Part shown: positions 5,055 through 63,849 of the stretch, piece after piece
Layout: each line of letters starts with the position of its first letter
Position numbering within the stretch: position 1 is the stretch's first letter
Assembly (NCBI RefSeq): GCF_050920415.1
Contig: NZ_CP169309.1
Length of the DNA stretch: 64,000 bases
Reading direction: 5' to 3' (one strand)
Source: Escherichia coli
GTDB taxonomy: Bacteria; Pseudomonadota; Gammaproteobacteria; Enterobacterales; Enterobacteriaceae
Notes under the pieces: generated by a model
The model's database searches: none
What the model saw: only the letters and a program-made list of their open reading frames with translations
What the model was told of the DNA's origin: nothing
Position numbers and translations under genes: made by a program

Positions 5055-5909
5055 TTAACCTGCAATAGCCATTCCTACTGTCATGTGCAGGCCATAAAAG
5101 AGCACACGCCCGATCATCTCACCGCCAAGTATGAGGATTAGCCCCAGAATAAGTCCGGCAACGTGAGGTTCGCGGCGACGAATGAGCGGGCAAAGCCAGC
5201 ATCCAAGACCTGCGCATAACAATACCACACGCCAGACCTGTAAGGAGGCGTAATCTGGTACCAGTGCGCTGGCTTGTTGCACGGATGAGTGAATAGACGC
5301 CAGAGACAAACCTTGCAGCACAATCACCCCGGCACAAGCGATCAGCGCCAGAACGCTAATGATGGCAAATGGTGTGGTATTAAATGTAACGCGAGCTGCC
5401 CGCAGAATTGCGGCAGCAAGTATTGGACCGCTCAACAATACCGTCAGGAAGAAAGCTAGCGTAGTGTAACCGTTATGCCAGGTTGGCACGGTGTCGATTT
5501 GATACACGCAGGTCATCATCCAGACGAAAATGACGCCGAGCGCCATGCTGACAAGTAACCAGAGTTTCCCCAACGCTTGCGGCATTTTACCGATGACCGC
5601 CACCAGCCACCATAGTCCGCCAACGGCAAAAAATATGGAACCGGCAGCAATCTCGTTACTCAGACCAGAAGCTCCGATTCGATTCAGCGAGTTAAACGCT
5701 CGCAGTGGCGATCCCAGGTGCATGACAGAGGCAATAAACCCGATGCCCATCAACAGCCAGAGGAAAAACATGCCACGGACAATACGCTGACGGTCTGCGT
5801 CATTTTTGGCGGCGAACCAGCCAATTCCGCTAACAATCAGCGCGCCTACTACGCATTGACCCAATACGGTAAAGATAACCAGTGGCCATTCATGCCATCC
5901 ATTTCCCAT
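5055..5909 (-). CDS. ynfH: DMSO-reductase-type membrane anchor subunit (DmsC paralog)
   Basis: 284 aa starting at internal MGNGWHEWPL of ORF 5055..6524; hydrophobic multi-TM protein. Confidence 0.85.
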   Translation of the reverse strand: MGNGWHEWPLVIFTVLGQCVVGALIVSGIGWFAAKNDADRQRIVRGMFFLWLLMGIGFIASVMHLGSPLRAFNSLNRIGASGLSNEIAAGSIFFAVGGLWWLVAVIGKMPQALGKLWLLVSMALGVIFVWMMTCVYQIDTVPTWHNGYTTLAFFLTVLLSGPILAAAILRAARVTFNTTPFAIISVLALIACAGVIVLQGLSLASIHSSVQQASALVPDYASLQVWRVVLLCAGLGCWLCPLIRRREPHVAGLILGLILILGGEMIGRVLFYGLHMTVGMAIAG

Positions 5910-5910
5910 T

Positions 5911-6524
5911 TTACACTTCCTCCGGATTAGCCAGATAACCAGTGGTATCGCCGGTCGGCTGTTGGCGTTAGGTTTGATAACGATATTGGGTTTTGTGAAA
6001 TGCGCGCGCGGCAGTGGCGCGACGGCAGCCAGAGTGCCGTGCTTCTGGCGCAGCTCTTCAATTGGACCGAACTCAAGTGCACGCAGCGGGCAGGATTCGA
6101 CGCATATGGGTTGTTTCCCCTCGGCGACGCGCGAATAACAACCATCGCACTTCGTCATGTGCCCTTTTTCAGCATTGTACTGTGGTGCGCCGTACGGACA
6201 AGCCATGTGGCAGTAGCGGCAGCCGATACAAACATCTTCATCAACCACCACAAAGCCATCTTCACGCTTATGCATTGCGCCGCTGGGGCAGACTTTTGTA
6301 CATGCGGGGTCATCGCAATGGTTACAGGAGATGGAGAGATAATAAGCGAACACGTTCTGGTGCCAGACGCCATTATCTTCCTGCCAGTCGCCGCCAGCGT
6401 ATTCATAAATACGGCGGAAACTGACTTCCGGGCCAAGATCTTTAAAATCTTTGCACGCCAGTTCGCAGGTTTTACAGCCTGTACAGCGGCTGGAATCGAT
6501 AAAAAATCCATATTGTGTGGTCAT
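5911..6524 (-). CDS. ynfG: 4Fe-4S ferredoxin subunit (DmsB paralog) with apparent C-terminal frameshift that fuses the reading frame to ynfH
   Basis: Four CxxCxxCxxxCP clusters; ORF track reads through into ynfH (489-aa fusion ORF); the alternative frame from about 5950 encodes the expected tail ...DTTGYLANPEEV and stops at a TAA overlapping the ynfH ATG. Confidence 0.7.
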
Positions 6525-9018: not shown

Positions 9019-11206
9019 TTATATTTTTTCGATCTCGACCAGATTAGTGTGCTGCGGGTTTCCCTTCGCCAGTGGTGAAGGGCGCAGAGTGGTTAGCGTA
9101 TTCACACAGCCGCCGTGGTCGATTTTATCGCCAGACATATTGGCCTCGTGCCAGGCTCCCTGGCCCATAGCGCTAACTCCAGGGAGAATGCGTGGTGTCA
9201 CTTTGGCTGGTAGCCGAACTTCGCCACGATGGTTAAACACCCGCACCATATCGCCGTTGGCAATCCCACGTTTCTGTGCATCTATAGGGTTGATCCACAC
9301 TTCCTGACGGCAGGCTGCCTTCAGGACATCAATGTTGCCGTAGGTCGAGTGAGTACGAGATTTGTAATGGAAACCAAACAGTTGTAGCGGGAAGGTACTA
9401 CGTTCAGGGGCGTCCCAGCCTTCGAAGGTTGAGGCATAAACCGGCAGTGGGCTTATTACTTCATCTTTTTCGAGTTCCCAGGTACGGGCAATTTCCGCCA
9501 GTTTGCTGGAATAAATTTCGATCTTACCGGAAGGCGTTTTAAGTGGATTTGTCTCGGGGTCGTCACGAAATGCTTTGTAGGCGATAAAATGACCATTAGG
9601 ATCCTTACGCTTATAGATACCCATTTTTTTCAGTTCGTCGTAAGACGGTAATGCCGGATCTTTGGCAAGCATTTTGGCGTACAGATGTTGTAACCATTGT
9701 TCCTGAGTGCGGCCTTCAGTGAATTTTTGATAGACGTCAGGGCCAAGACGTTTCGCGACTTCACTTAGGATCCAGTAAATCGGTTTGCGTTCGAATTTTT
9801 CGCTGGTGACTGGCTGGAGGAAAATGAGATATCCCATGTTACCGGCGTAATCGTTAGGAATAATATCTTCCTGCTCAACGGTCATCAGGTCTGGCAGCAG
9901 AATGTCGGCATATTTTGCCGATGAGGTCATAAAGTTTTCGATGACCACAATCATTTCGCATTTCGATTCGTCCTGCAGAATTTCATGCGTTTTGTTAATG
10001 TCAGAATGCTGATTAACCAGGGTATTTCCCGCGTAGTTCCAGATGAACTTAATGGGCACATCCAGTTTATCTTTGCCGCGGACGCCGTCGCGGATTGCCG
10101 TCATTTGCGGGCCATGATCGATAGCATCCGTCCAGCTGAAGCAGGAGATTGATGTTTTGACCGGATTATCCAGCACCGGCAGGCGTTCTATGGTAATGGT
10201 ATAGGTGGATTCACGCGCGCCACTATTTCCGCCGCTGATGCCGACATTGCCCGTCAGAATAGGCAACATCGCAATAGCGCGTGCGGTCAGCTCACCGTTT
10301 GCCTGGCGTTGCGGTCCCCAACCCTGGCAGATATAAGCGGGTTTTGCTGTGCCGATTTCACGCGCCAGTTTGATGATACGGTCCACCGGGATACCGGTAA
10401 TTTGCGAAGCCCACTGCGGCGTTTTCGCTGTGTTATCATCACCTTCACCAAGAATATAGGCTTTATAGTGGCCATTTTTTGGTGCATCTGCGGGTAAGGT
10501 TTTTTCGTCATAACCGACGCAGTATTTATCGAGAAAAGGTTGATCAACGAGATTTTCGTTAATCAATGCCATCATTACTGCCGTAGGTGTAGGGCATGGC
10601 ACAGGAAATTTGCGCGGTGCTGTAGGAGCCATACTGGTTGAGTGAACCGCCGTAGCAGTTCATCAGGCGTTTGACCGCCGAGGCTGATGGCGAAGAGCGG
10701 GTCATATTGCCGCCAACGATCCCCGAAGAGTACTGAATATATACAGCCTCATTGCCATATTGTTCGACGGTTTTTTTCAGACTACTGGCGATAGTATCCA
10801 GGGCTTCATCCCAGCTAATCCGTTCGAATTTGCCTTCGCCGCGTTTGCCCACGCGTTTCATTGGGTAATTCAAGCGATCGGGATGATTAATACGCCGACG
10901 GATGGACCGACCGCGCAAACAGGCGCGTACTTGATGATTGCCATACTCGTCGCTGCCGGTGTTGTCAGTTTCCACCCAGGTGACTTCATTATCTTTAACA
11001 TGTAGACGAAGTGCACAGCGGCTACCACAGTTGACGGAACAGGCACCCCAGACCACTTTTTCGCTGGCCTGTTGTACCGCTGCCGCTGCACTGCGCAGGG
11101 TGAACGGTAAAGAAAAACCGCCTGCAGCCAGCGCCAGAGAACCTATCGCGGTAGATTTAACGAGTGTTCTGCGGCTGATGCCCACCATTTGTTCATTTTT
11201 GGACAT
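9019..11206 (-). pseudogene. ynfE: DmsA paralog ynfE disrupted by an internal deletion of about 240 bp with frameshift
   Basis: Two ORFs (10559..11206, 215 aa with Tat signal; 9019..10632, 537 aa) in different frames; alignment to adjacent paralog ynfF shows about 80 residues missing between ...YTYGSNDG and LINENLVDQPF; junction near 10560-10570. Confidence 0.8.
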
Positions 11207-24114: not shown

Positions 24115-24964
24115 AAGCACGGTGTTCGGGGTTTTTTATGAGCAGCAAGCTTCATGGTCTTGTCTGGGAAGGGTGCGCCTTCACCGGCATGATCTTATCC
24201 AGGGTGGCAGTAATGGCTCGCCTTGCAGACTACAGCAATGACGAAGGTGTGTCATGGCCTGCAGTGGAGACCATTCGTCGTCAGATTGGGGCAAAGAGTG
24301 AATCAACGGTTAAAGCGGCGATAGCGGAACTGGAAAAGAACGGCTGGCTGACGAAGGAGGAGCGTAAGGTCGGTGGGCGTAATGAAAGCAATATCTACCG
24401 CCTTAATGTGGAAAAACTCGAAGCAGCAGCTGAGGCGGCGCGTGAGGCATATAAACCGAAAAGAAAAATTAGCCCGGCAAAAAATGACCCGTTAACAGTT
24501 GACCAGTCAAATATTGCCCCCTCAACGGTTGACCCGTCAAATTTTGATGGATCAACCGTTGGTAAAAAACAGCCGGTTAGGGGGGCGATGGTTGGCCCCG
24601 ATCCGTCAGTATTAAAACCTGATCCGTCAGATAAAAGATCTTTTCGTCCGGAAGCTTCGCAACCGGACCCGCAGACGGCTGAACAGGATTTTTTAACCCG
24701 ACATCCTGATGCGGTTGTGTTTAGTGCAAAAAAACGTCAGTGGGGAACTCAGGAGGATTTGGCATGCGCACAGTGGATCTGGGGGCGAATCGTGAGTCTT
24801 TACGAACAGGCCGCCAGCGATGATGGCGAGATCACCCGACCGAAAGAACCCAACTGGACAGCATGGGCCAATGACGTGCGCATAATGCGGATGCTGGATG
24901 GCAGAACTCACAGACAAATCTGTGAACCGCCCCGGGTTTCCTGGAGAGTGTTTTATCTGTGAAC

Positions 24965-25831
24965 TCAGGCTGCCAGATCATTGTTTCCGATGGAAGCATA
25001 ATAAGCTTTTTCTGCTTCTGCCGGAGGAGTATGGCCCAGCCTTCCCAGCAATCGTCGATTGTTATACCAGTCCACCCACGTGAGTGTGGCCAGTTCCACT
25101 TCTGCACGGTTTTTCCAGCTCTTACGGTGTATTACCTCCGCTTTGTAAAGACCATTGATGCTCTCAGCCATCGCGTTGTCATACGAGTCGCCTGTACTCC
25201 CTGTTGATGCCAGCAGTTTTGCTTCTTTTAGTCGCTCCGTATAGGCCAGTGACACATACTGAGAGCCTTTATCGCTGTGATGGATGGTGCCAGACGGACG
25301 ACGGGCCCACAACGCCTGCTCCAGCGCATCCAGCACGAATGTCGTTTCCATAGACGATGAGACCCGCCACCCCACGATGTATCCGGCAAACACATCAATG
25401 ATGAACGCCACATAGACGAAGCCCTGCCATGTGCTGACGTAAGTAAAATCAGCCACCCACAGCTGGTCAGGACGTTCTGCCACGAACTGACGGTTTACGC
25501 GGTCACCTGTGGCAACGGTTTTCCGGCTGACGGTAGTGCGGACCTTTTTACCCCGGAGAACACCGGCAAGTCCCATAACCGCCATGAGGCGCGCCACTGT
25601 ACATCTGGCCACCCTGATTCCTTCCCGTAACAACTGACGCCAGACTTTACGCACACCGTACACCTGATGATTTTCATCGTATACGCGCTGTATCTCTCTC
25701 TTCAGCCAGTCATCGCGCTGCGCACGGGCACTGCGTTTATCAGGATGATGCCGCTGCTGCTGACAATGGTAATACGTTGACGGGGCAATATGCAGTTCAC
25801 TGCATACCGGTCCGACCCCCGTACTGCTCAC
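24965..25831 (-). CDS. IS3-family transposase OrfB (DDE integrase domain)
   Basis: 288-aa ORF with DDE catalytic region; expressed as OrfAB by -1 frameshift. Confidence 0.85.
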   Translation of the reverse strand: MSSTGVGPVCSELHIAPSTYYHCQQQRHHPDKRSARAQRDDWLKREIQRVYDENHQVYGVRKVWRQLLREGIRVARCTVARLMAVMGLAGVLRGKKVRTTVSRKTVATGDRVNRQFVAERPDQLWVADFTYVSTWQGFVYVAFIIDVFAGYIVGWRVSSSMETTFVLDALEQALWARRPSGTIHHSDKGSQYVSLAYTERLKEAKLLASTGSTGDSYDNAMAESINGLYKAEVIHRKSWKNRAEVELATLTWVDWYNNRRLLGRLGHTPPAEAEKAYYASIGNNDLAA

Positions 25832-25852
25832 GCAGCTTATCCAGCAGTGGCA

Positions 25853-26179
25853 TTATTTTTTCCAGAGGCGGTCGAACTCCGCCTTCGCAAAATAAGCGGA
25901 AGCCTGGCGAAGGATATCGTTACTGCGGCGCAGTTCACGATTTTCACGTTCCAGCTCTTTCAGACGCTGACGTTCAGCGGTGGTGAGCCCACCATCACCG
26001 CTCCCGGTATCCCTCTCATGCTGGCGAACCCAGACACGCAGAGTCTCTGGCGTACAGCCAATCTTTGGAGCAATGGAACAAATTGCCGCCCATTGTGAGT
26101 CATATTCGCCCTGACTTTCCAGAACCATACGAACTGCGCGTTGACGGACTTCGGGGGAAAAACGAGTATTTTTAGTCAT
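25853..26179 (-). CDS. IS3-family transposase OrfA (HTH and leucine zipper)
   Basis: 108 aa, [19 protein letters not shown]...; recognised IS629-type OrfA. Confidence 0.85.
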
Positions 26180-26454
26180 CCTGTTTACCTCTTTCTCAGG
26201 AAGTTTAGTCTCCAGGATTTCCGGGGCGGTTCACTGCGAAATGTTTGGTCGGGTACAGCGGGATCCATTCTGGGTAAAAAACATCATGAGCCCGTCAAAA
26301 CTTCGCGATAAATGGGATGAGCTGGTTATCCGTCTGGGGCGTTCGCCTGTACAGCGTTGTGTGAATCATATTTCTGAACCTGACACCGAAATTCCACCAG
26401 GGTTCAGGGGGTAGGTATTGATTTCAGATCATGAGGTAATTTTCAGGAGGACTT

Positions 26455-39562: not shown

Positions 39563-39726
39563 TTCAAAAAACGAAAGAACGGAGGTACGTATGTACGCAC
39601 TGAAAAAGATTACGGTAACTGAAGATGGTCGTCAGTAGACTGGCCCCCTGAATCTCCAGACAACCAGTATCACTTAAATAAGTGATAGTCTTAATACTAG
39701 TTTTTAGACTAGTCATTGGAGAACAG

Positions 39727-40092
39727 ATGATTGATGTCTTAGGGCCGGAGAAACGCAGACGGCGTACCACACAGGAAAAGATCGCAATTGTTCAGCAGAG
39801 CTTTGAACCGGGGATGACGGTCTCCCTCGTTGCCCGGCAACATGGTGTAGCAGCCAGCCAGTTATTTCTCTGGCGTAAGCAATACCAGGAAGGAAGTCTT
39901 ACTGCTGTCGCCGCCGGAGAACAGGTTGTTCCTGCCTCTGAACTTGCTGCCGCCATGAAGCAGATTAAAGAACTCCAGCGCCTGCTCGGCAAGAAAACGA
40001 TGGAAAATGAACTCCTCAAAGAAGCCGTTGAATATGGACGGGCAAAAAAGTGGATAGCGCACGCGCCCTTATTGCCCGGGGATGGGGAGTAA
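39727..40092 (+). CDS. insC: IS2 transposase InsC (OrfA)
   Basis: 121 aa from [18 protein letters not shown]...; recognised IS2 InsC. Confidence 0.9.
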
Positions 40093-40955
40093 GCTTAGTC
40101 AGCCGTTGTCTCCGGGTGTCGCGTGCGCAGTTGCACGTCATTCTCAGACGAACCGATGACTGGATGGATGGCCGCCGCAGTCGTCACACTGATGATACGG
40201 ATGTGCTTCTCCGTATACACCATGTTATCGGAGAGCTGCCCACGTATGGTTATCGTCGGGTATGGGCGCTGCTTCGCAGACAGGCAGAACTTGATGGTAT
40301 GCCTGCAATCAATGCCAAACGTGTTTACCGGATCATGCGCCAGAATGCGCTGTTGCTTGAGCGAAAACCTGCTGTACCGCCATCGAAACGGGCACATACA
40401 GGCAGAGTGGCCGTGAAAGAAAGCAATCAGCGATGGTGCTCTGACGGGTTCGAGTTCTGCTGTGATAACGGAGAGAGACTGCGTGTCACGTTCGCGCTGG
40501 ACTGCTGTGATCGTGAGGCACTGCACTGGGCGGTGACTACTGGCGGCTTCAACAGTGAAACAGTACAGGACGTCATGCTGGGAGCGGTGGAACGCCGCTT
40601 CGGCAACGATCTTCCGTCGTCTCCAGTGGAGTGGCTGACGGATAATGGTTCATGCTACCGGGCTAATGAAACACGCCAGTTCGCCCGGATGTTGGGACTT
40701 GAACCGAAGAACACGGCGGTGCGGAGTCCGGAGAGTAACGGAATAGCAGAGAGCTTCGTGAAAACGATAAAGCGTGACTACATCAGTATCATGCCCAAAC
40801 CAGACGGGTTAACGGCAGCAAAGAACCTTGCAGAGGCGTTCGAGCATTATAACGAATGGCATCCGCATAGTGCGCTGGGTTATCGCTCGCCACGGGAATA
40901 TCTGCGGCAGCGGGCTTGTAATGGGTTAAGTGATAACAGATGTCTGGAAATATAG
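40050..40955 (+). CDS. insD: IS2 transposase InsD (OrfB, DDE)
   Basis: 301-aa ORF; recognised IS2 InsD; overlaps insC for -1 frameshift fusion. Confidence 0.9.
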
Positions 40956-41236
40956 GGGCAAATCCAGTCAGGTTGAGGAAGTGCATGTCCTGGGGGGATA
41001 TGTATCGTATGGAGTTTTACCCGCGTAATACCCATCTGGCAGCAAAAATTGAGTATTGCCGGAACGGGAATATTTCATGTTTGCAGGTAGAGAAAACGGA
41101 TGAGGCTTATATCACTACGCTGAACGGCGATACGATGTCAGCGCCAATGATATAAGACAGTAATTCACCATTTGGATTGTCCGCTCCACCCAACATGTTG
41201 TTTCCTTAAGGTTCCTACACCACAAAGGGAACACTC

Positions 41237-43202
<1,966 letters not shown>

Positions 43203-43419
43203 TGACCAATAGCGGACATTAAAAATGGCGAAAAACGGCCAATAATCTTGGCGTTGACAACGATGCGTTGCATCTGTCGCGGCGACAGTAAAGCCCGGAA
43301 TGAAATGGCCAGATGTCGTACTCATACCAGTGAATAACAAGTAAAACCCCGGCGGCTGAAACAACCAAGGGGTTAACAGTGTAAATAAAACTGCCCATAT
43401 TGATGGGCAGCGCATGTAA

Positions 43420-44920: not shown

Positions 44921-45125
44921 AGCGGGTTTTCGCTATTTACGAGTTTTTTTGAGGTGATGGTTGTTGTTTTATCGTTTGATATATCTACTTGATAAGTAAT
45001 AAGAAAGAAAAATAAACACAACAACCTGATGATCTTTCTTATACGAAAAAGCATGTAAAATCAGAGGGTTTTACAAAAAACGTGGTTGTTGTATTGCTTT
45101 TTTGCCGGTGGTTTATGGAGGGGCT

Positions 45126-45603
45126 GTGGCCTTTTTATTGAATAAAAGCGACATGGCCTCCTCCATCGGTATCTCAGTACAGGCATTTGATAAATGGGGT
45201 GTTCCTCCTGTTGAGCGCCGGGGGAGAGAGGTTTTCTATGACGTTAAAACTGTACTGGAGATAGATCGCGAGCGACGTCAACAAAACCAGAAATCTTCAG
45301 GTGGTGAAAATGATCTTGAGGAAAGGCTACTTCAGGCCAGGGTTAACCTGACGGAAGAACAGGCTATTGCTCAGCGGTTAAAAAACCAGGTTGCAGAGCA
45401 TAAGGTGATTGATACAGCTTTCTCTATTTTTGCCCTGTCCCGGTTATCCGGAGAACTGGCATCTGTTTTGGACAGTATTCCGCTTTCGATGCAAAGAAAA
45501 TTCCCTGAATTGACAGGCAGACAATTGGCTTATCTAAAAGAGCTGGTTGCGAAGGGGGCTAATAAATGCGTTGAGTCCGCTGAAAAAATGAAGGAATTTG
45601 CGG

Positions 45604-45632
<29 letters not shown>
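45126..45632 (+). CDS. nu1: terminase small subunit (Nu1-like)
   Basis: ORF 45102..45632; central and C-terminal region aligns with lambda Nu1 (...TAFSIFALSRLSGELASVLDSIPLSMQRKFPEL); start uncertain (GTG 45126, TTG 45138 or ATG 45153). Confidence 0.8.
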
Positions 45633-49310
<3,678 letters not shown>

Positions 49311-49330
<20 letters not shown>

Positions 49331-50630
49331 TCTCCCGCATATTGCCAGCATGGCCTTTAATGAGCCGCTGATGCTTGAACCCGCCTATGCGCGGGTTTTC
49401 TTTTGTGCGCTAGCAGGCCAGCTTGGGATCAGCCGCCTGACAGATGCGGTGTCCGGTGACAGCCTGACTGCCCCGGAGACACCCGCGACGCTGGCGTTAT
49501 CTGGTGATGATGACGGACCACGACAGGCCCGCAGTTATCAGGTCATGAACGGCATCGCCGTGCTGCCGGTTTCCGGCACGCTGGTCAGCCGGACGCGGGC
49601 GCTGCAGCCGTATTCGGGGATGACCGGTTACAACGGCATTATCGCCCGTCTGCAACAGGCTGCCAGCGATCCGATGGTGGACGGCATTCTGCTCGATATG
49701 GACACGCCCGGCGGGATGGTGGCGGGGGCATTTGACTGCGCTGACATCATCGCCCGTGTGCGTGACATAAAACCGGTATGGGCGCTTGCCAACGACATGA
49801 ACTGCAGTGCAGGTCAGTTGCTTGCCAGTGCCGCTTCCCGGCGTCTGGTCACGCAGACCGCCCGGACAGGCTCCATCGGCGTCATGATGGCTCACAGCAA
49901 TTACGGTGCAGCGCTGGAGAAACAGGGCGTGGAAATCACGCTGATTTACAGCGGCAGCCATAAGGTGGATGGCAACCCCTACAGCCATCTTCCGGATGAC
50001 GTCCGGGAAACACTGCAGTCCCGGATGGATGCAACCCGCCAGATGTTTGCGCAGAAAGTGTCGGCATATACCGGCCTGTCCGTGCAGGCTGTGCTGGATA
50101 CCGAGGCTGCAGTGTACAGCGGTCAGGAGGCCATTGATGCCGGACTGGCTGATGAACTTGTTAACAGTACCGATGCGATCACCGTCATGCGTGATGCACT
50201 GGATACACGTAAATCCCGTCTCTCAGGAGGGCGAATGACCAAAGAGACTCAATCAACAACTGTTTCAGCCACTGCTTCGCAGGCTGACGTTACTGGCGTG
50301 GTGCAAGCGACGGAGGGCGAGAACGCCAGCGCTGCGCAGCCGGACGTGAACGCGCAGATCACCGCAGCGGTTGCGGCAGAAAACAGTCGCATTATGGGGA
50401 TCCTCAACTGTGAGGAGGCTCACGGACGCGAAGAACAGGCATGCGTGCTGGCCGAAACCCCCGGTATGACCGTGGAAACGGCCCGCCGTATTCTGGCCGC
50501 AGCACCACAGAGTGCACAGGCGCGCAGTGACACTGCGCTGGATCGTCTGATGCAGGGGGCACCGGCGCCGCTGGCTGCAGGTAACCCGGCATCTGATGCC
50601 GTTAACGATTTGCTGAACACACCAGTGTAA
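49311..50630 (+). CDS. C: head maturation protease / scaffold C
   Basis: 439 aa from GTG (VTAELRNLPHIASMAF...) with GAGGAGG RBS; S49 ClpP-like protease fold. Confidence 0.9.
50025..50630 (+). CDS. nu3: scaffolding protein Nu3 (in-frame C-terminal portion of C)
   Basis: In-frame internal ATG (MDATRQMF...) as in lambda, where nu3 shares the 3' end of C. Confidence 0.55.
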   Translation: MDATRQMFAQKVSAYTGLSVQAVLDTEAAVYSGQEAIDAGLADELVNSTDAITVMRDALDTRKSRLSGGRMTKETQSTTVSATASQADVTGVVQATEGENASAAQPDVNAQITAAVAAENSRIMGILNCEEAHGREEQACVLAETPGMTVETARRILAAAPQSAQARSDTALDRLMQGAPAPLAAGNPASDAVNDLLNTPV

Positions 50631-50639
50631 GGGATGTTT

Positions 50640-50972
50640 ATGACGAGCAAAGAAACCTTTACCCATTACCAGCCGCTGGGCAACAGTGACCCGGCTCATA
50701 CCGCAACCGCGCCCGGCGTATTGAGTGCGAAAGCGCCTGCAATGACCCCGCTGATGCTGGACACCTCCACCCGTAAGCTGGTTGCGTGGGATGGCACCAC
50801 CGACGGTGCTGCCGTTGGCATTCTTGCAGTTGCTGCTGACCAGACCAGCACCACACTGACGTTCTACAAGTCCGGCACGTTCCGTTATGAGGATGTGCTC
50901 TGGCCGGAGGCTGCCAGCGACGAGACGAAAAAACGGACCGCGTTTGCCGGAACGGCAATCAGCATCGTTTAA
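50640..50972 (+). CDS. D: head decoration protein D
   Basis: 110 aa, [26 protein letters not shown]... Confidence 0.9.
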
Positions 50973-51027
50973 CTTTACCCTTCATCACTAAAGGCCGCCT
51001 GTGCGGCTTTTTTTACGGGATTTTTTT

Positions 51028-53847: not shown

Positions 53848-54588
53848 ATGCCTGTACCAAATCCAGCAATACCGGTGAAAGGTGCCGGGACCACCCTGTG
53901 GGTTTATAACGGGAGCGGCGACCCTTATGCGAACCCGCTTTCAGACGTTGACTGGTCGCGTCTGGCTAAAGTTAAAGACCTGACGCCCGGCGAACTGACC
54001 GCTGAGTCCTATGACGACAGTTATCTCGATGATGAAGATGCGGACTGGACCGCGACCGGGCAGGGGCAGAAATCCGCCGGAGATACCAGCTTCACGCTGG
54101 CGTGGATGCCCGGAGAGCAGGGGCAGCAGGCGCTGCTGGCGTGGTTTAATGAAGGTGATACCCGTGCCTATAAAATCCGCTTCCCGAACGGCACGGTCGA
54201 TGTGTTCCGTGGCTGGGTCAGCAGTATCGGTAAGGCGGTGACGGCGAAGGAAGTGATCACCCGTACGGTGAAGGTCACCAATGTGGGCCGTCCGTCAATG
54301 GCAGAAGATCGCAGCACGGTAACAGCGGCAACCGGTATGACCGTGACGCCTGCCAGCTCCTCGGTGGTGAAAGGGCAGAGCACCACGCTGACCGTGGCAT
54401 TCCAGCCGGAGGGCGCAACTGACAAGAGCTTCCGTGCGGTGTCAGCGGATAAAACAAAAGCCACCGTGTCGGTCAGTGGTATGACCATCACCGTGAAAGG
54501 CGTTGCTGCAGGTAAGGTCAACATTCCGGTTTTATCCGGTAATGGTGAACTTGCTGCGGTTGCAGAAATCACTGTCACCGACAGTTAA
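53848..54588 (+). CDS. V: major tail tube protein V
   Basis: 246 aa from [20 protein letters not shown]...; C-terminal Ig-like domain. Confidence 0.95.
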
Positions 54589-54603: not shown

Positions 54604-55028
54604 ATGTTCCTGAAAACCGAATCATTTGAACATAACGGTGTGACCGTCACGCTTTCTGAACTGTCAGCCCTGCAGCGCATTGAGCATCTCGCCCTGATGA
54701 AACGGCAGGCAGAACAGGCGGAGTCAGACAGCAACCGGAAGTTTACTGTGGAAGACGCGCCATCAGAACCGGCGCGTTTCTGGTGGCGATGTCCCTGTGG
54801 CATAACCATCCGCAGAAGACAAAGCTGCCGTCCATGAATGAAGCCGTTAAACAGATTGAGCAGGAAGTGCTTACCACCTGGCCCACGGAGGCAATTTCTC
54901 ATGCTGAAAACGTGGTGTACCGGCTGTCTGGTATGTATGAGTTTGTGGTGAATAATGCCCCTGAACAGACAGAGGACGCCGGGCCCGCAGAGCCTGTTTC
55001 TGCGGGAAAGTGTTCGACGGTGAGCTGA
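54604..55028 (+). CDS. G: tail assembly chaperone G, disrupted by an apparent 2-bp insertion frameshift
   Basis: ORF 54604..54837 matches lambda G to ...FTVEDA then diverges; ORF 54783..55028 in the +2 frame matches the rest (AMSLWHNHPQ...KCSTVS); removing 2 bp near 54756-54760 restores EDAIRTGAFLVAMSLW. Confidence 0.8.
55004..55010 (+). promoter_or_regulatory. programmed -1 ribosomal frameshift slippery site GGGAAAG for the G-T fusion
   Basis: Heptamer GGGAAAG at the end of G, overlapping the start of the T frame, as in lambda. Confidence 0.6.
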
Positions 55029-55444
55029 GTTTTGCCCTGAAACTGGCGCGTGAGATGGGGCGACCTGACTGGCGTGCCATGCTTGCCGGGATGTCATCCA
55101 CGGAGTATGCCGACTGGCACCGCTTTTACAGTACCCATTATTTTCATGATGTTCTGCTGGATATGCACTTTTCCGGGCTGACGTACACCGTGCTCAGCCT
55201 GTTTTTCAGCGATCCGGATATGCATCCGCTGGATTTCAGTCTGCTGAACCGGCGCGAGGCTGACGAAGAGCCTGAAGATGATGTGCTGATGCAGAAAGCG
55301 GCAGGGCTTGCCGGAGGTGTCCGCTTTGGCCCGGACGGGAATGAAGTTATCCCCGCTTCCCCGGATGTGGCGGACATGACGGAGGATGACGTAATGCTGA
55401 TGACAGTATCAGAAGGGATCGCAGGAGGAGTCCGGTATGGCTGA
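55010..55444 (+). CDS. T: tail assembly protein T (made as G-T fusion by -1 frameshift)
   Basis: 144-codon ORF, lambda T-like. Confidence 0.8.
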   Translation: MFDGELSFALKLAREMGRPDWRAMLAGMSSTEYADWHRFYSTHYFHDVLLDMHFSGLTYTVLSLFFSDPDMHPLDFSLLNRREADEEPEDDVLMQKAAGLAGGVRFGPDGNEVIPASPDVADMTEDDVMLMTVSEGIAGGVRYG

Positions 55445-57998
55445 ACCGGTAGGCGATCTGGTCGTTGATTTAAGTCTGGATGCGGCCAGATTTGACGAGC
55501 AGATGGCCAGAGTCAGGCGTCATTTTTCCGGTACGGAAAGTGATGCGAAAAAAACAGCGGCAGTCGTTGAACAGTCGCTGAGCCGACAGGCGCTGGCTGC
55601 ACAGAAAGCGGGGATTTCCGTCGGGCAGTATAAAGCCGCCATGCGTATGCTGCCTGCACAGTTCACCGACGTGGCCACGCAGCTTGCAGGCGGGCAAAGT
55701 CCGTGGCTGATCCTGCTGCAACAGGGGGGGCAGGTGAAGGACTCCTTCGGCGGGATGATCCCCATGTTCAGGGGGCTTGCCGGTGCGATCACCCTGCCGA
55801 TGGTGGGGGCCACCTCGCTGGCGGTGGCGACCGGTGCGCTGGCGTATGCCTGGTATCAGGGCAACTCAACCCTGTCCGATTTCAACAAAACGCTGGTCCT
55901 TTCCGGCAATCAGTCGGGTCTGACGGCAGATCGCATGCTGGTCCTGTCCAGAGCCGGGCAGGCGGCAGGGCTGACGTTTAACCAGACCAGCGAGTCACTC
56001 AGCGCACTGGTTAAGGCGGGGGTAAGCGGTGAGGCTCAGATTGCGTCCATCAGCCAGAGTGTGGCGCGTTTCTCCTCTGCATCCGGCGTGGAGGTGGACA
56101 AGGTCGCTGAAGCCTTCGGGAAGCTGACCACAGACCCGACGTCGGGGCTGACGGCGATGGCACGCCAGTTCCATAACGTGACGGCGGAGCAGATTGCGTA
56201 TGTTGCTCAGTTGCAGCGTTCCGGCGATGAAGCCGGGGCATTGCAGGCGGCGAACGAGGCCGCAACGAAAGGGTTTGATGACCAGACCCGCCGCCTGAAA
56301 GAGAACATGGGCACGCTGGAGACCTGGGCAGACAGGACTGCGCGGGCCTTCAAATCCATGTGGGATGCGGTGCTGGATATTGGTCGTCCTGATACCGCGC
56401 AGGAGATGCTGATTAAGGCAGAGGCTGCGTTTAAGAAAGCAGACGACATCTGGAATCTGCGCAAGGATGATTATTTTGTTAACGATGAAGCGCGGGCGCG
56501 TTACTGGGATGATCGTGAAAAGGCCCGTCTTGCGCTTGAAGCCGCCCGAAAGAAGGCTGAGCAGCAGACTCAACAGGACAAAAATGCGCAGCAGCAGAGC
56601 GATACCGAAGCGTCACGGCTGAAATATACCGAAGAGGCGCAGAAGGCTTACGAACGGCTGCAGACGCCGCTGGAGAAATATACCGCCCGTCAGGAAGAAC
56701 TGAACAAGGCACTGAAAGACGGGAAAATCCTGCAGGCGGATTACAACACGCTGATGGCGGCGGCGAAAAAGGATTATGAAGCGACGCTGAAAAAGCCGAA
56801 ACAGTCCGGCGTGAAGGTGTCTGCGGGCGATCGTCAGGAAGACAGTGCTCATGCTGCCCTGCTGACGCTTCAGGCAGAACTCCGGACGCTGGAGAAGCAT
56901 GCCGGAGCGAATGAGAAAATCAGCCAGCAGCGCCGGGATTTGTGGAAGGCAGAAAGTCAGTTCGCGGTACTGGAGGAGGCGGCACAACGTCGCCAGCTGT
57001 CCGCACAGGAGAAATCCCTGCTGGCGCATAAAGATGAGACGCTGGAGTACAAACGCCAGCTGGCTGCACTTGGCGACAAGGTTACGTATCAGGAGCGCCT
57101 GAACGCGCTGGCGCAGCAGGCGGATAAATTCGCACAGCAGCAACGGGCAAAACGGGCCGCCATTGATGCGAAAAGCCGGGGGCTGACTGACCGGCAGGCA
57201 GAACGGGAAGCCACGGAACAGCGCCTGAAGGAACAGTATGGCGATAATCCGCTGGCGCTGAATAACGTCATGTCAGAGCAGAAAAAGACCTGGGCGGCTG
57301 AAGACCAGCTTCGCGGGAGCTGGATGGCAGGCCTGAAGTCCGGCTGGAGTGAGTGGGAAGAGAGCGCCATGGACAGTATGTCGCAGGTAAAAAGTGCAGC
57401 CACGCAGACCTTTGATGGTATTGCACAGAATATGGCGGCGATGCTGACCGGCAGTGAGCAGAACTGGCGCAGCTTCACCCGTTCCGTGCTGTCCATGATG
57501 ACAGAAATTCTGCTTAAGCAGGCAATGGTGGGGATTGTCGGGAGTATCGGCAGCGCCATTGGCGGGGCTGTTGGTGGCGGCGCATCCGCGTCAGGCGGTA
57601 CAGCCATTCAGGCCGCTGCGGCGAAATTCCATTTTGCAACCGGAGGATTTACGGGAACCGGCGGCAAATATGAGCCAGCGGGGATTGTTCACCGTGGTGA
57701 GTTTGTCTTCACGAAGGAGGCAACCAGCCGGATTGGCGTGGGGAATCTCTACCGGCTGATGCGCGGCTATGCCACCGGTGGTTATGTCGGTACACCGGGC
57801 AGTCTGGCTGACAGCCGGTCGCAGGCGTCCGGGACGTTTGAGCAGAATAACCATGTGGTGATTAACAACGAAGGCACGAACGGGCAGATAGGGCCACAGG
57901 CGCTGAAGGCGGTTTATGACGTAGCCCGTAAGGCGGCAATGGATGTTGTGACCGGGCAGATGCGCGATGGTGGTCTGTTCTCCGGAGGTGGACGATGA
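55437..57998 (+). CDS. H: tail tape measure protein H
   Basis: 853 aa, lambda H-like. Confidence 0.95.
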   Translation: MAEPVGDLVVDLSLDAARFDEQMARVRRHFSGTESDAKKTAAVVEQSLSRQALAAQKAGISVGQYKAAMRMLPAQFTDVATQLAGGQSPWLILLQQGGQVKDSFGGMIPMFRGLAGAITLPMVGATSLAVATGALAYAWYQGNSTLSDFNKTLVLSGNQSGLTADRMLVLSRAGQAAGLTFNQTSESLSALVKAGVSGEAQIASISQSVARFSSASGVEVDKVAEAFGKLTTDPTSGLTAMARQFHNVTAEQIAYVAQLQRSGDEAGALQAANEAATKGFDDQTRRLKENMGTLETWADRTARAFKSMWDAVLDIGRPDTAQEMLIKAEAAFKKADDIWNLRKDDYFVNDEARARYWDDREKARLALEAARKKAEQQTQQDKNAQQQSDTEASRLKYTEEAQKAYERLQTPLEKYTARQEELNKALKDGKILQADYNTLMAAAKKDYEATLKKPKQSGVKVSAGDRQEDSAHAALLTLQAELRTLEKHAGANEKISQQRRDLWKAESQFAVLEEAAQRRQLSAQEKSLLAHKDETLEYKRQLAALGDKVTYQERLNALAQQADKFAQQQRAKRAAIDAKSRGLTDRQAEREATEQRLKEQYGDNPLALNNVMSEQKKTWAAEDQLRGSWMAGLKSGWSEWEESAMDSMSQVKSAATQTFDGIAQNMAAMLTGSEQNWRSFTRSVLSMMTEILLKQAMVGIVGSIGSAIGGAVGGGASASGGTAIQAAAAKFHFATGGFTGTGGKYEPAGIVHRGEFVFTKEATSRIGVGNLYRLMRGYATGGYVGTPGSLADSRSQASGTFEQNNHVVINNEGTNGQIGPQALKAVYDVARKAAMDVVTGQMRDGGLFSGGGR

Positions 57999-58324
57999 AA
58001 ACCTTCCGCTGGAAAGTGAAACCCGGTATGGATGTGGCTTCGGCCCCTTCCGTCAGGAAGGTGCGCTTTGGTGATGGCTATTCCCAGCGTGCGCCTGCCG
58101 GGCTGAATGCCGACCTGAAAACGTACAGTGTGACGCTTTCCGTGACCCGGGAGGAGGCCCGGCATCTGGAGTCGTTTCTGGCAGAGCACGGGGGCTGGAA
58201 GGCCTTTCTGTGGACGCCGCCTTATGGTTACAGGCAGATAAAGGTGACCTGCGCAAAATGGTCGTCGCAGGTCAGTATGTTGCGTGTTGAGTTCAGCGCA
58301 GAGTTTAAACAGGTGGTGAACTGA
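57995..58324 (+). CDS. M: tail tip protein M
   Basis: 109 aa. Confidence 0.9.
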   Translation: MKTFRWKVKPGMDVASAPSVRKVRFGDGYSQRAPAGLNADLKTYSVTLSVTREEARHLESFLAEHGGWKAFLWTPPYGYRQIKVTCAKWSSQVSMLRVEFSAEFKQVVN

Positions 58325-60370: not shown

Positions 60371-63300
60371 ATGGGTAAAGGCAGCAGTAAGGGGCATACC
60401 CCGCGCGAAGCGAAGGACAACCTGAAGTCCACGCAGCTGCTGAGTGTGATCGATGCCATCAGCGAAGGGCCGGTTGAAGGTCCGGTGGATGGATTAAAAA
60501 GCGTGCTGCTGAACAGTACACCTGTGCTGGACAGTGAGGGGAATACCAATATCTCCGGCGTCACGGTGGTGTTCCGGCCGGTGAGCAGGAGCAGACACCG
60601 CCGGAGGGGTTTGAATCCTCCGGCTCCGAGACGGTGCTGGGTACGGAAGTGAAATACGACACGCCGATCACCCGCACCATTACGTCTGCAAACATCGACC
60701 GTCTGCGCTTTACCTTCGGTGTACAGGCACTGGTGGAAACCACCTCAAAGGGTGACAGGAATCCGTCGGAAGTCCGCCTGCTGGTTCAGATACAACGTAA
60801 CGGTGGCTGGGTGACGGAAAAGGACATCACCATTAAGGGTAAAACCACTTCACAGTATCTGGCCTCGGTGGTGGTGGATAACCTGCCGCCGCGCCCGTTC
60901 AGTATCCGGATGCGCAGGATGACGCCGGACAGCACCACAGACCAGCTGCAGAACAAAACGCTCTGGTCGTCATACACTGAAATCATCGATGTGAAACAGT
61001 GCTACCCGAACACGGCACTGGTTGGCGTACAGGTGGACTCGGAACAGTTCGGCAGTCAGCAGGTGAGCCGTAATTATCATCTGCGCGGGCGCATTCTGCA
61101 GGTGCCGTCGAACTATAACCCGCAGACGCGGCAATACAGCGGTATCTGGGACGGAACGTTTAAACCGGCATACAGCAACAACATGGCCTGGTGTCTGTGG
61201 GATATGCTGACCCATCCGCGCTACGGCATGGGGAAACGTCTTGGTGCGGCGGATGTGGATAAATGGGCGCTGTATGTCATCGGCCAGTACTGCGACCAGT
61301 CAGTGCCGGACGGCTTTGGTGGCACGGAGCCGCGCATCACCTGTAATGCGTACCTGACCACACAGCGCAAGGCGTGGGATGTGCTCAGTGATTTCTGCTC
61401 GGCGATGCGCTGTATGCCGGTATGGAACGGGCAGACGCTGACGTTCGTGCAGGACCGACCGTCGGATAAGGTGTGGACCTATAACCGCAGTAATGTGGTG
61501 ATGCCGGATGATGGCGCGCCGTTCCGCTACAGCTTCAGCGCCCTGAAGGACCGCCATAATGCCGTTGAGGTGAACTGGATTGACCCGGACAACGGCTGGG
61601 AGACGGCGACAGAGCTTGTTGAAGATACGCAGGCCATTGCCCGTTACGGTCGTAATGTCACGAAGATGGATGCCTTTGGCTGTACCAGCCGGGGGCAGGC
61701 ACACCGCGCCGGGCTGTGGCTGATTAAAACGGAACTGCTGGAGACGCAGACCGTGGATTTCAGCGTGGGTGCTGAAGGGCTTCGCCATGTACCGGGCGAT
61801 GTCATTGAAATCTGCGATGATGACTATGCCGGTATCAGCACCGGTGGTCGCGTGCTGGCGGTGAACAGCCAGACCCGGACGCTGACGCTCGACCGTGAAA
61901 TCACGCTGCCATCCTCCGGTACCACGCTGATAAGCCTGGTTGACGGAAGTGGCAATCCGGTCAGCGTGGAGGTTCAGTCCGTCACCGACGGCGTGAAGGT
62001 AAAAGTGAGCCGTGTTCCTGACGGTGTTGCTGAATACAGCGTATGGGGGCTGAAGCTGCCGACGCTGCGCCAGCGACTGTTCCGCTGCGTGAGTATCCGT
62101 GAGAACGACGACGGCACGTATGCCATCACCGCCGTGCAGCATGTGCCGGAAAAAGAGGCCATCGTGGATAACGGGGCGCACTTTGACGGCGAACAGAGTG
62201 GCACGGTGAATGGTGTCACGCCGCCAGCGGTGCAGCACCTGACCGCAGAAGTCACTGCAGACAGCGGGGAATATCAGGTGCTGGCGCGCTGGGACACGCC
62301 GAAGGTGGTGAAGGGCGTGAGCTTCCTGCTTCGCCTGACCGTGGCAGCGGATGACGGCAGTGAGCGGCTGGTCAGCACGGCCCGGACGACGGAAACAACA
62401 TACCGCTTCAGGCAGCTGGCGCTGGGGCGGTACACGCTGACAGTCCGGGCGGTAAATGCGTGGGGGCAGCAGGGCGATCCGGCATCGGTATCGTTCCGGA
62501 TTGCCGCACCGGCAGCGCCGTCGCGGATTGAGCTGACGCCGGGCTATTTTCAGATAACCGCCACGCCGCATCTTGCGGTTTATGACCCGACGGTACAGTT
62601 TGAGTTCTGGTTCTCGGAAAAGCGGATTACCGATATCAGGCAGGTTGAAACCACAGCCCGCTATCTTGGTACGGCGCTGTACTGGATAGCCGCCAGTATC
62701 AATATCAAACCGGGCCATGATTATTACTTTTATATCCGCAGTGTGAACACCGTTGGCAAATCGGCATTCGTGGAGGCTGTTGGTCAGCCGAGTGATGATG
62801 CTTCCGGCTATCTGGATTTTTTCAAAGGAGTGATAGGGAAAACACACCTGGCTCAGGAGCTGTGGACGCAGATTGATAACGGTCAGCTTGCGCCTGACCT
62901 GGCTGAAATCAGGACGTCCATTACGGATGTCAGCAATGAAATCACACAGACCGTCAATAAGAAACTGGAAGACCAGAGTGCAGCGATCCAGCAGATACAG
63001 AAGGTTCAGGTTGATACAAATAATAACCTGAACAGCATGTGGGCTGTGAAGCTGCAGCAGATGCAGGACGGACGCCTTTATATCGCGGGTATCGGTGCCG
63101 GTATTGAGAACACCCCTGACGGCATGCAGAGTCAGGTGCTGCTGGCGGCGGACAGGATTGCGATGGTTAATCCTGCGAATGGCAACACAAAACCGATGTT
63201 TGTTGGTCAGGGCGATCAGATATTCATGAACGACGTGTTCCTGAAGCGCCTGACGGCCCCCACCATTACCAGCGGCGGCAATCCCCCGGCCTTTTCCCTG

Positions 63301-63849
63301 ACACCAGACGGAAAGCTGACCGCTAAAAATGCGGATATCAGTGGCAGTGTGAATGCGAACGCCGGGACGCTCAATAATGTCACGATTAATGAGAACTGTC
63401 AGATTCTGGGGAAACTGTCAGCTAATCAGATTGAAGGCGATATTGTTAAAACGGTGGGTAAGGCTTTCCCCCGTGACTCCCGGGCACCGGAGCGGTGGCC
63501 GTCAGGGACCATTACCGTCAGGGTTTATGACGATCAGCCTTTTGACCGGCAAATTGTCATTCCGGCGGTGGCATTCAGCGGTGCCAGACATGAGAGAGAG
63601 CATAATGACATTTATTCATCATGCCGTCTGATAGTGCGGAAAAACGGTGCTGAAATTTATAACCGTACCGCGCTGGATAATACGCTGATTTATACCGGTG
63701 TGATTGATATGCCAGCGGGTCGCGGTCACATGACGCTGGAGTTTTCGGTATCAGCGTGGCTGGTGAATGACTGGTATCCCACGGCAAGCATCAGCGATTT
63801 GCTGGTTGTGGTGATGAAGAAATCCACAGCCGGTATCAGTATCAGCTGA
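60371..63849 (+). CDS. J: tail tip/host-specificity protein J, with apparent 1-bp deletion frameshift near codon 70 and a divergent C-terminal receptor-binding region
   Basis: ORF 60371..60652 matches lambda J to ...VTVVFR then goes out of frame; ORF 60634..63849 matches the remainder; restoring one G in the GG run near 60574-60580 gives ...[28 protein letters not shown]; last 200-250 aa differ from lambda J. Confidence 0.85.

What the first reader, a model, noticed from the sequence alone, without database searches (positions are those of the whole stretch)
54604..55028. Tail assembly chaperone gene G carries a 2-bp insertion
Both halves of lambda G are present but in different frames; removing a GC dinucleotide near 54756-54760 restores the full lambda-like sequence. 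As written, G is truncated at 77 aa and the G-T fusion, which needs the G frame to reach the GGGAAAG slippery site, cannot be made, so tail assembly should fail.
Basis: seen in the sequence. Interest (0 to 1): 0.5.

Follow-up and report, generated by a model that had tools for sequence, protein, structure and literature searches.

The report
Frameshifted lambda tail chaperone gene G
A lambda-like prophage in an E. coli chromosome has two extra bases in its tail-assembly chaperone gene G that break the reading frame, which is either routine decay of an already dead prophage or a sequencing-consensus error.

Summary
Compared with lambda and with the closest E. coli prophages, gene G carries a tandem CG duplication (GACGCC to GACGCGCC, 54756-54759). 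The start-codon frame now ends at 54835-54837 after 77 codons. That is 167 nt before the GGGAAAG slip site (55004-55010), which is in phase only with the C-terminal frame. No shift-prone motif could restore the frame.

The insertion was found nowhere else: not in 5,426 complete E. coli genomes, the phage records, IMG/VR, the GTDB representatives or the metagenome contigs.

G is not the only lesion. J has a 1-bp deletion. An IS3-family element cuts the O-like replication gene. IS2 and ISEc62 sit just after the endolysin gene.

Whether the 2 bp exist in the cell is open. Against a near-identical sibling strain, outside two recombinant patches, the window shows 6 substitutions and 6 indel events. 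Four of 7 indels lie in IS copies. One sits at a GATC site beside a substitution, which looks like a long-read error.

I put a true null allele at about 0.5 and a consensus error at about 0.43. Either way the finding is ordinary. Sibling prophages could supply G and GT in trans, so tailed particles would not refute the frameshift.

The parts
53848..54588 (+). Major tail protein gene V, immediately upstream of G
   Evidence: tblastn with lambda V: residues 1-246, 96.3% identity, one frame
54604..54837 (+). Truncated G reading frame as recorded: 52 native codons, 25 out-of-frame codons, TGA stop
   Evidence: ORF list; TIGR01674 profile positions 1-52; PF06894 positions 1-52
54756..54759 (+). CGCG, where lambda and all relatives have a single CG. 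This is the 2-bp tandem duplication; its placement is ambiguous within 54756-54760.
   Evidence: Alignments with lambda, strain 442/2 and MFDS1022581
54760..55028 (+). Remainder of G (residues 53-140 and the stop), now one base back from the start-codon frame. This frame is open from 54684.
   Evidence: Three-frame translation and stop map; tblastn; TIGR01674 positions 60-137
54834..54837 (+). ATGA overlap: the ATG of G Met77 in the correct frame overlaps the TGA that ends the truncated ORF. It is a possible termination-reinitiation point, by inference only.
   Evidence: Read from the sequence. No Shine-Dalgarno-like sequence upstream.
55004..55010 (+). Slippery heptamer G GGA AAG for the G-to-T -1 frameshift, in phase only with the C-terminal G frame
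   Evidence: Heptamer scan; identical to lambda; named as the lambda slip site in PMC3296357 Table 1
55010..55444 (+). T reading frame, expressed in lambda only as the GT fusion
   Evidence: 100% amino-acid identity to lambda T; TIGR01715, 189 bits
55437..57998 (+). Tape measure gene H, intact
   Evidence: 853 aa, 98.1% identity to lambda H over its full length
60371..63849 (+). Tail tip gene J, split into ORFs 60371-60652 and 60634-63849 by a 1-bp deletion (CCGGGCC to CCGGCC) at about 60576
24923..26233 (-). IS3-family element of 1311 bp with a 3-bp CTG target duplication. It cuts the O-like replication initiator gene and is absent from the sibling strain.
39636..40966 (+). IS2 of 1331 bp with a 5-bp GTCAG target duplication, just after the endolysin gene. 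Absent from the sibling strain.
41136..43259 (+). IS21-family ISEc62, at the same site in the sibling strain. The window copy lacks one G near the 3' end of istA.

Best explanation
Taken as recorded, this is a null allele of the lambda-type tail assembly chaperone gene G. A slipped-strand tandem duplication of CG (GACGCC to GACGCGCC) shifts the frame after codon 52. Translation from the G start codon ends at a TGA after 77 codons (shown). Ribosomes therefore never reach the G GGA AAG slip site in the right phase, so neither full-length gpG nor the frameshift fusion gpGT is made from this copy (follows directly from the sequence). In lambda, gpG and the G part of gpGT coat the tape measure protein gpH, and the T part recruits the major tail protein gpV. 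Without them this prophage could not assemble tails from its own genes (inferred from lambda genetics). The lesion is one of several in a Qin-site (ydfJ) lambdoid prophage. J is frameshifted, an IS3-family element cuts the O-like replication gene, and IS2 and ISEc62 lie just after the endolysin gene. G is thus one more hit in a prophage that the record already shows to be defective. It is not a regulated or novel feature. G and GT could still be supplied in trans by sibling lambdoid prophages.
For: The insertion and its frame consequences are shown. Other lesions in the same prophage: J; the IS3-family element in the O-like gene, phrog_391; IS2 and ISEc62. The IS insertions have target-site duplications and are structural, so they are not consensus errors, and they mean selection on G is relaxed. 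The lineage also carries genuine small lesions shared by two independent assemblies: a 4-bp deletion in ynfG and a 239-bp deletion in ynfE. A clean dinucleotide tandem duplication is a classic replication-slippage product and is not the usual homopolymer-type platform error (my own knowledge). The requirement for gpG and gpGT is stated in PMC5009743 and PMC3296357.
Against: The insertion is unique. It is absent from all G copies in 5,426 complete E. coli genomes, 50,697 phage records, IMG/VR, GTDB representatives, metagenome contigs and the exact-protein index. The sibling strain MFDS1022581 differs from the window by 1 base in 18,240 bp of flanking chromosome and has an intact G. So the mutation would have to be very recent, together with three other window-specific frameshifts: J, istA of ISEc62, and the newly inserted IS3-family copy. 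Six indel events against six substitutions is unlikely for real mutation (P about 4e-5 at an indel:substitution ratio of 1:10, and 0.004 at 1:4). No reads are available.
Confidence: 0.5

Rival explanations
1. The two extra bases are a consensus or polishing error of a long-read assembly in multi-copy prophage DNA. The real gene is intact and works like lambda G/GT: gpG is made by normal decoding, and gpGT by about 3-4% -1 slippage at G GGA AAG.
For: A 64-kb contig that spans three multi-copy IS elements and a paralogous prophage must come from long reads (inference). Against the near-identical sibling assembly, outside two recombinant patches, there are 6 substitutions and 6 indel events. All the indels lie in IS or lambdoid late-gene DNA, and none lie in about 37 kb of other sequence. 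With outgroups, three indels are window-specific and three are sibling-specific. The same inherited ISEc62 copy therefore carries different frameshifts in the two assemblies. The window's ISEc62 deletion sits in a GATC Dam site with an adjacent C-to-T change, which is a typical nanopore signature (my own knowledge). The IS3-family copy that entered only in the window's lineage already has a C4-to-C5 change that breaks its orfA/orfB -1 arrangement. Four of 7 indels lie in the 7-10% of sequence that is IS DNA (P 0.0009-0.003). The insertion is found nowhere else.
Against: A clean 2-bp non-homopolymer insertion is not the common error type. The A-to-C head gene block (5.1 kb) matches two independent genomes at 99.9% with no indel, and the IS2 copy has the canonical length, so repeat DNA in this assembly is not generally poor. 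A paralogous G copy in the sibling genome offers no CG donor at this site, so mis-polishing from a paralog does not explain it. Relaxed selection in a prophage already hit by IS elements also predicts real frameshifts.
Confidence: 0.43
2. The insertion is real but G function is partly kept. Either ribosomes correct the frame by a -1 shift near the indel, or they reinitiate at the ATGA overlap (Met77, 54834) and make N-terminally truncated G and GT that still act.
For: The correct frame is open from 54684, so a -1 shift anywhere before 54835 would give a near full-length protein. The ATG of Met77 overlaps the TGA of the truncated ORF. Corrective frameshifting at indels is a documented class (PMC5009743).
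Against: There is no X XXY YYZ heptamer and no homopolymer run of 4 or more between 54684 and 54835. The indel is not conserved in any relative. There is no Shine-Dalgarno-like sequence before 54783, 54789 or 54834 (read). A fragment lacking residues 1-76 loses more than half of the chaperone domain (profile coordinates).
Confidence: 0.03

Closest known systems
Bacteriophage lambda G / G-T tail assembly chaperone with programmed -1 frameshift (Levin, Hendrix and Casjens 1993; Xu, Hendrix and Duda 2004, 2013, 2014, as cited in PMC5009743)
   Same: The V-G-T-H gene order is the same. The locus is 99.3% identical to lambda over 841 nt. The ribosome-binding region and the GGGAAAG slip site are identical. 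T is 100% identical at protein level. TIGR01674, PF06894 and TIGR01715 all match.
   Different: An extra CG after codon 52 breaks the G frame, so the start-codon frame ends 167 nt before the slip site. As recorded the locus cannot produce gpG or gpGT.
Defective lambdoid prophage pools of E. coli, such as the O157 Sakai Sp prophages (Asadulghani et al. 2009, PMC2669165), and the K-12 cryptic prophage Qin at ydfJ
   Same: It is a lambdoid prophage next to rspB with ydfJ at the far end in the sibling. It carries IS insertions and frameshifts in morphogenesis and replication genes. Paralogous prophages in the same lineage exchange sequence with it (the H/M patch) and could complement it.
   Different: Nothing substantive. 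This copy still has an almost complete lambda-like late operon, with 19 of 21 tested lambda late proteins full length. Whatever decay is real must therefore be recent.
Residual indel errors of long-read assemblies in repeated DNA
   Same: There is an excess of indels over substitutions against a sibling assembly. The indels are concentrated in IS and paralogous prophage DNA, and one lies at a Dam site.
   Different: The G change is a clean 2-bp tandem duplication, not a homopolymer length change.

Membership tests
Lambda-type tail assembly chaperone G/GT | Sequence match to the G family models | tested here: met
   TIGR01674 matches at 81 bits (profile 1-52) and 110 bits (profile 60-137), against a cut-off of 74.45. 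PF06894 matches with E = 2e-22.
Lambda-type tail assembly chaperone G/GT | Location between the major tail protein gene and the tape measure gene | tested here: met
   V ends at 54588, G starts at 54604 and H starts at 55437.
Lambda-type tail assembly chaperone G/GT | A -1 slippery heptamer near the 3' end of G, in phase, with the T frame open in -1 | tested here: met
   G GGA AAG lies at 55004-55010, in phase with the C-terminal G frame. The T frame at 55010-55444 is intact.
Lambda-type tail assembly chaperone G/GT | Uninterrupted reading frame from the G start codon to the slippery site | tested here: not met
   The 2-bp insertion at 54756-54759 shifts the start-codon frame, which stops at 54835-54837.
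Lambda-type tail assembly chaperone G/GT | Production of gpG and gpGT at roughly 30:1 and a requirement for both in tail assembly | not testable with these tools
   This needs protein detection and complementation. The requirement itself is taken from PMC5009743 and PMC3296357.
Corrective (compensatory) ribosomal frameshifting at an indel | A shift-prone motif inside the window where both frames are open | tested here: not met
   No X XXY YYZ heptamer and no run of 4 or more identical bases lies between 54684 and 54835.
Corrective (compensatory) ribosomal frameshifting at an indel | The indel is maintained in related genomes | tested here: not met
   There are zero occurrences in 5,426 E. coli genomes, the phage records, IMG/VR, the GTDB representatives and the metagenome contigs.
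Defective (cryptic) lambdoid prophage | Integrated lambdoid element with an integrase at a chromosomal site | tested here: met
   An integrase and excisionase lie next to rspB at about 16.6-18.1 kb. Split ydfJ lies at the far end in the sibling, to which the window is nearly identical.
Defective (cryptic) lambdoid prophage | Inactivating lesions in genes needed for the lytic cycle | tested here: met
   The O-like initiator is cut by an IS3-family element after about 261 of 320 codons. J and G are frameshifted. IS2 and ISEc62 follow the endolysin gene. The IS insertions are structural; the small indels depend on sequence accuracy.
Defective (cryptic) lambdoid prophage | Failure to yield infectious particles on its own | not testable with these tools
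   This needs induction and plaque or transduction assays in a background without sibling prophages.
Long-read consensus indel error | Indel excess over substitutions against a near-identical independent assembly, concentrated in repeats | tested here: met
   There are 6 indel events against 6 substitutions outside the recombinant patches. Four of 7 indels lie in IS DNA.
Long-read consensus indel error | Lack of read support for the variant | not testable with these tools
   No reads or source accession are available. The source assembly was not found in any collection searched.

The most novel reading that the evidence does not exclude
The insertion is real, and the prophage nevertheless keeps chaperone function in one of two unusual ways. 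Either termination-reinitiation at the ATGA overlap (Met77) yields N-terminally truncated G and GT that still bind the tape measure protein. Or the element persists as a helper-dependent prophage that relies on the G/GT of sibling lambdoid prophages for tail assembly.
Probability: 0.04. Interest if true: 0.3.

Novelty: already known. Interest (0 to 1): 0.07.

Why it matters
It matters little beyond annotation. If real, G should be annotated as a pseudogene and the prophage scored as defective. It would be one more example of recent prophage decay in an IS-rich E. coli lineage, and of a defective prophage that still holds an almost complete lambda late operon available for recombination or complementation. 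If it is an error, the practical point is that unique frameshifts in paralogous prophage and IS DNA of long-read assemblies should not be read as biology without read support. In this window that caution applies to G, J, istA and the IS3-family transposase.

Tried and rejected
1. Compensating programmed -1 frameshift. I scanned for slippery heptamers and homopolymer runs in the interval where both frames are open (54684-54835) and found none. Rejected.

2. The same allele elsewhere, which would show a real, inherited mutation. I ran a 71-nt query across the site against 5,426 complete E. coli genomes; the best hits all lack the 2 bp. The phage records gave the same result. An exact 37-mer found 0 matches in IMG/VR, the GTDB representative genomes and the metagenome contigs. 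An exact look-up of the 77-aa product found nothing on record.

3. Finding the source assembly. Exact look-ups of the window's H protein, the IS-truncated O-like protein and the J C-terminal ORF all returned nothing on record.

4. Mis-polishing from a paralogous G copy. The paralog in the sibling genome reads GAAGACATTGTC at the site and offers no CG donor. This does not explain the insertion.

5. A generally poor assembly. The flanking 18 kb differs from the sibling at only 1 base. The A-to-C block matches two other genomes at 99.9% without indels. The shared ynfG and ynfE lesions are a 4-bp and a 239-bp deletion, so they are real and not homopolymer errors. Any errors are therefore confined to repeats.

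6. One alignment call was wasted on a dummy sequence.

Full report
**1. The observation**

Window 54604-55444 is the lambda G-T locus. It is 99.3% identical to lambda over 841 nt. It is 99.8% identical to the orthologous prophage genes of E. coli strains 442/2, JCKP02 and MFDS1022581, and in each case the record span is 839 nt against 841 nt in the window.

The alignment shows one length difference. The window reads GAAGACGCGCCATC where lambda and strain 442/2 read GAAGACGCCATC. The extra dinucleotide is a tandem copy of CG/GC and can be placed anywhere in 54756-54760.

The frame from the G start codon (54604) continues for 52 native and 25 foreign codons and stops at TGA 54835-54837, giving 77 aa. 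The rest of G, residues 53-140, lies one base back in a frame that is open from 54684 to the normal G stop at 55026-55028. TIGR01674 matches the first ORF at profile positions 1-52 and the second at 60-137. PF06894 matches residues 1-52.

The slip site GGGAAAG at 55004-55010 is in X XXY YYZ phase only with the C-terminal frame.

**2. Consequences as recorded**

According to the literature, gpG and gpGT are made at about 30:1 through -1 slippage at this heptamer. The G parts bind the tape measure protein, the T part binds the major tail protein, and both products are required (PMC5009743; PMC3296357).

Ribosomes starting at the G start codon here terminate 167 nt before the heptamer. This copy therefore cannot make full gpG or gpGT.

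I looked for a rescue. No slippery heptamer and no run of four or more identical bases lies in the interval where a -1 shift would restore the frame.

One coincidence is worth recording. The ATG of Met77 in the correct frame (54834) overlaps the TGA of the truncated ORF as ATGA. Termination-reinitiation could therefore give a fragment of residues 77-140 and a matching truncated GT. There is no Shine-Dalgarno-like sequence, and more than half of the domain would be missing, so I rate this as very unlikely to matter.

**3. Context**

The window runs from ynfL through rspB (1-16.4 kb). It continues into a lambdoid prophage whose sibling copy ends at a split ydfJ, the Qin site.

The closest record is E. 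coli MFDS1022581. It differs by 1 base in the first 18,240 bp and is collinear with the window apart from two insertions in the window.

- **IS3-family element, 24923-26233.** It has a 3-bp CTG target duplication. It cuts the O-like replication initiator (phrog_391) after about 261 of 320 codons.
- **IS2, 39636-40966.** It has a 5-bp GTCAG target duplication and lies just after the endolysin gene.
- **ISEc62, 41136-43259.** Both strains carry this IS21-family element next to the IS2 site.

I compared 21 lambda late proteins with the window. Nineteen align over their full length in one frame. These include A, W, B, C, D, E, FI, FII, Z, U, V, T, H, M, L, K and I, plus a divergent Nu1.

G and J are the exceptions. 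J is split at residue 69 by loss of one G from CCGGGCC.

As recorded, then, the prophage has lesions in replication, next to the lysis genes, and in two tail genes.

**4. Is the insertion found anywhere else?**

It is not.

- None of the G copies in 5,426 complete E. coli genomes carries it. The best matches to a 71-nt probe all span 69 nt.
- None of the matching phage records listed spans more than 839 nt of the 841-nt query.
- An exact 37-mer is absent from IMG/VR, the GTDB representative genomes and the JGI metagenome contigs.
- The 77-aa product is not on record in the exact-protein index.
- The source assembly itself could not be located.

**5. Real mutation or consensus error?**

This is the only open question, and it cannot be settled without reads. 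There are arguments on both sides.

*For a real mutation:*

- The IS insertions are genuine structural events and relax selection on G.
- The lineage has genuine small lesions shared by both assemblies: a 4-bp deletion in ynfG and a 239-bp deletion in ynfE.
- A clean dinucleotide duplication is what replication slippage produces. It is not the usual homopolymer-type platform error (my own knowledge).

*For an error:*

- **Indel excess.** Outside two recombinant patches, the window and its sibling differ by 6 substitutions and 6 indel events. Every indel lies in IS or lambdoid late-gene DNA, and none lies in about 37 kb of other sequence.
- **Different frameshifts in each assembly.** Using outgroups, three indels are window-specific: G +CG, J -G and ISEc62 -G. 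Three are sibling-specific: ISEc62 -G, ISEc62 -A and portal -T. The one ISEc62 copy inherited by both strains therefore carries different frameshifts in each assembly.
- **A Dam-site change.** The window's ISEc62 change is a deletion plus an adjacent C-to-T inside a GATC site. That is a typical nanopore signature (my own knowledge).
- **A fresh IS copy already damaged.** The IS3-family copy that entered only the window's lineage already has C5 instead of C4. This puts orfB in the same frame as orfA.
- **Concentration in IS DNA.** Four of 7 indels lie in the 7-10% of the sequence that is IS DNA (P 0.0009-0.003).
- **Improbable under real mutation.** Six indel events against six substitutions is improbable: P about 4e-5 at an indel:substitution ratio of 1:10 and 0.004 at 1:4. 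The 1:10 ratio is my recollection of E. coli mutation-accumulation data.

*Points that temper the error reading:*

- The A-to-C block matches two independent genomes at 99.9% without indels.
- The IS2 copy has the canonical length.
- A paralogous G copy offers no donor for the CG.

I put a true null allele at about 0.5 and a consensus error at about 0.43. The difference lies within my uncertainty.

**6. Trans effects**

The sibling genome has 6 places matching the G-T query (H33). One is a prophage at 1.21 Mb with an intact paralogous G and T.

The window's H/M junction (57698-58192) carries the paralog's alleles at nearly all differing sites. This shows either gene conversion or chimeric assembly between copies.

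Defective lambdoid prophages of O157 Sakai are packaged and transferred through complementation by their siblings (PMC2669165). Tailed particles carrying this prophage's DNA would therefore not refute the frameshift.

**7. Comparison with what is known, and verdict**

The locus is a member of the lambda G/GT family by sequence, synteny, slip site and T frame. It fails the one feature needed for function, an uninterrupted G frame up to the slip site.

It does not meet the criteria for corrective frameshifting. It fits the well-known picture of a decaying lambdoid prophage, or else of residual indel error in repeat DNA.

Nothing here is new in kind. Interest is low.

Noticed in passing
window 60371-63849 (break at about 60576): Tail tip gene J is also frameshifted. 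One G is missing from CCGGGCC relative to lambda and the sibling strain, which splits J into a 93-aa ORF and a 1071-aa ORF. Apart from that deletion and one substitution, J is identical to the sibling's intact 1159-aa J.
   Followed up: yes
window 24923-26233: An IS3-family element of 1311 bp with a CTG target duplication interrupts the O-like replication initiator gene and is absent from the sibling strain. This copy has CCCCC at 25816 where canonical copies have CCCC, which puts orfB in the same frame as orfA and breaks the usual -1 frameshift arrangement.
   Followed up: yes
window 39636-40966 and 41136-43259: IS2 (5-bp GTCAG duplication, window-specific) and the IS21-family ISEc62 (shared with the sibling) lie just after the endolysin gene, where lambda has Rz/Rz1. 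I did not verify which gene they disrupt. The window's ISEc62 lacks a G inside a GATC site and has an adjacent C-to-T change. The sibling's copy has two different 1-bp deletions.
   Followed up: partly
window 5055-6524 and 9019-11206: The chromosomal genes ynfG (4-bp deletion at 5956, fusing the frame with ynfH) and ynfE (239-bp deletion near 10567) are pseudogenes. Both lesions are shared exactly with strain MFDS1022581, so they are real lineage mutations in the ynfEFGH selenate reductase operon.
   Followed up: partly
window 57698-58192: A tract of about 500 bp at the H/M junction differs from the orthologous sibling sequence at about 25 sites and matches a paralogous prophage of the sibling genome (1.21 Mb) at almost all of them. 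This is either gene conversion between prophages or a chimeric consensus. No complete E. coli genome matches the 701-bp stretch around this tract (57600-58300) at better than 98.9%.
   Followed up: partly
window 45969-50976: About 100 substitutions separate the window from the sibling in the A-to-D head gene block. Here the window matches strains 442/2 and JCKP02 at 99.9%, so the sibling is the recombinant or aberrant one. The sibling's portal gene also has a 1-bp deletion that the window lacks.
   Followed up: partly
window 54834-54837: There is an ATGA overlap: the ATG of G Met77 in the correct frame overlaps the TGA that ends the truncated ORF. This is a chance arrangement that could allow low-level reinitiation.
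   Followed up: partly
window 45102-45632: The small terminase subunit is only about 37% identical to lambda Nu1, while the adjacent large subunit A is 97% identical. This marks a mosaic boundary at the left end of the late operon.
   Followed up: no
L008 (MFDS1022581 1209772-1219465): A second lambdoid prophage in the sibling genome is annotated with a frameshifted tape measure gene and a frameshifted J gene. Frameshifts in tail genes therefore recur in this lineage's assemblies, whether they are real or errors.
   Followed up: no
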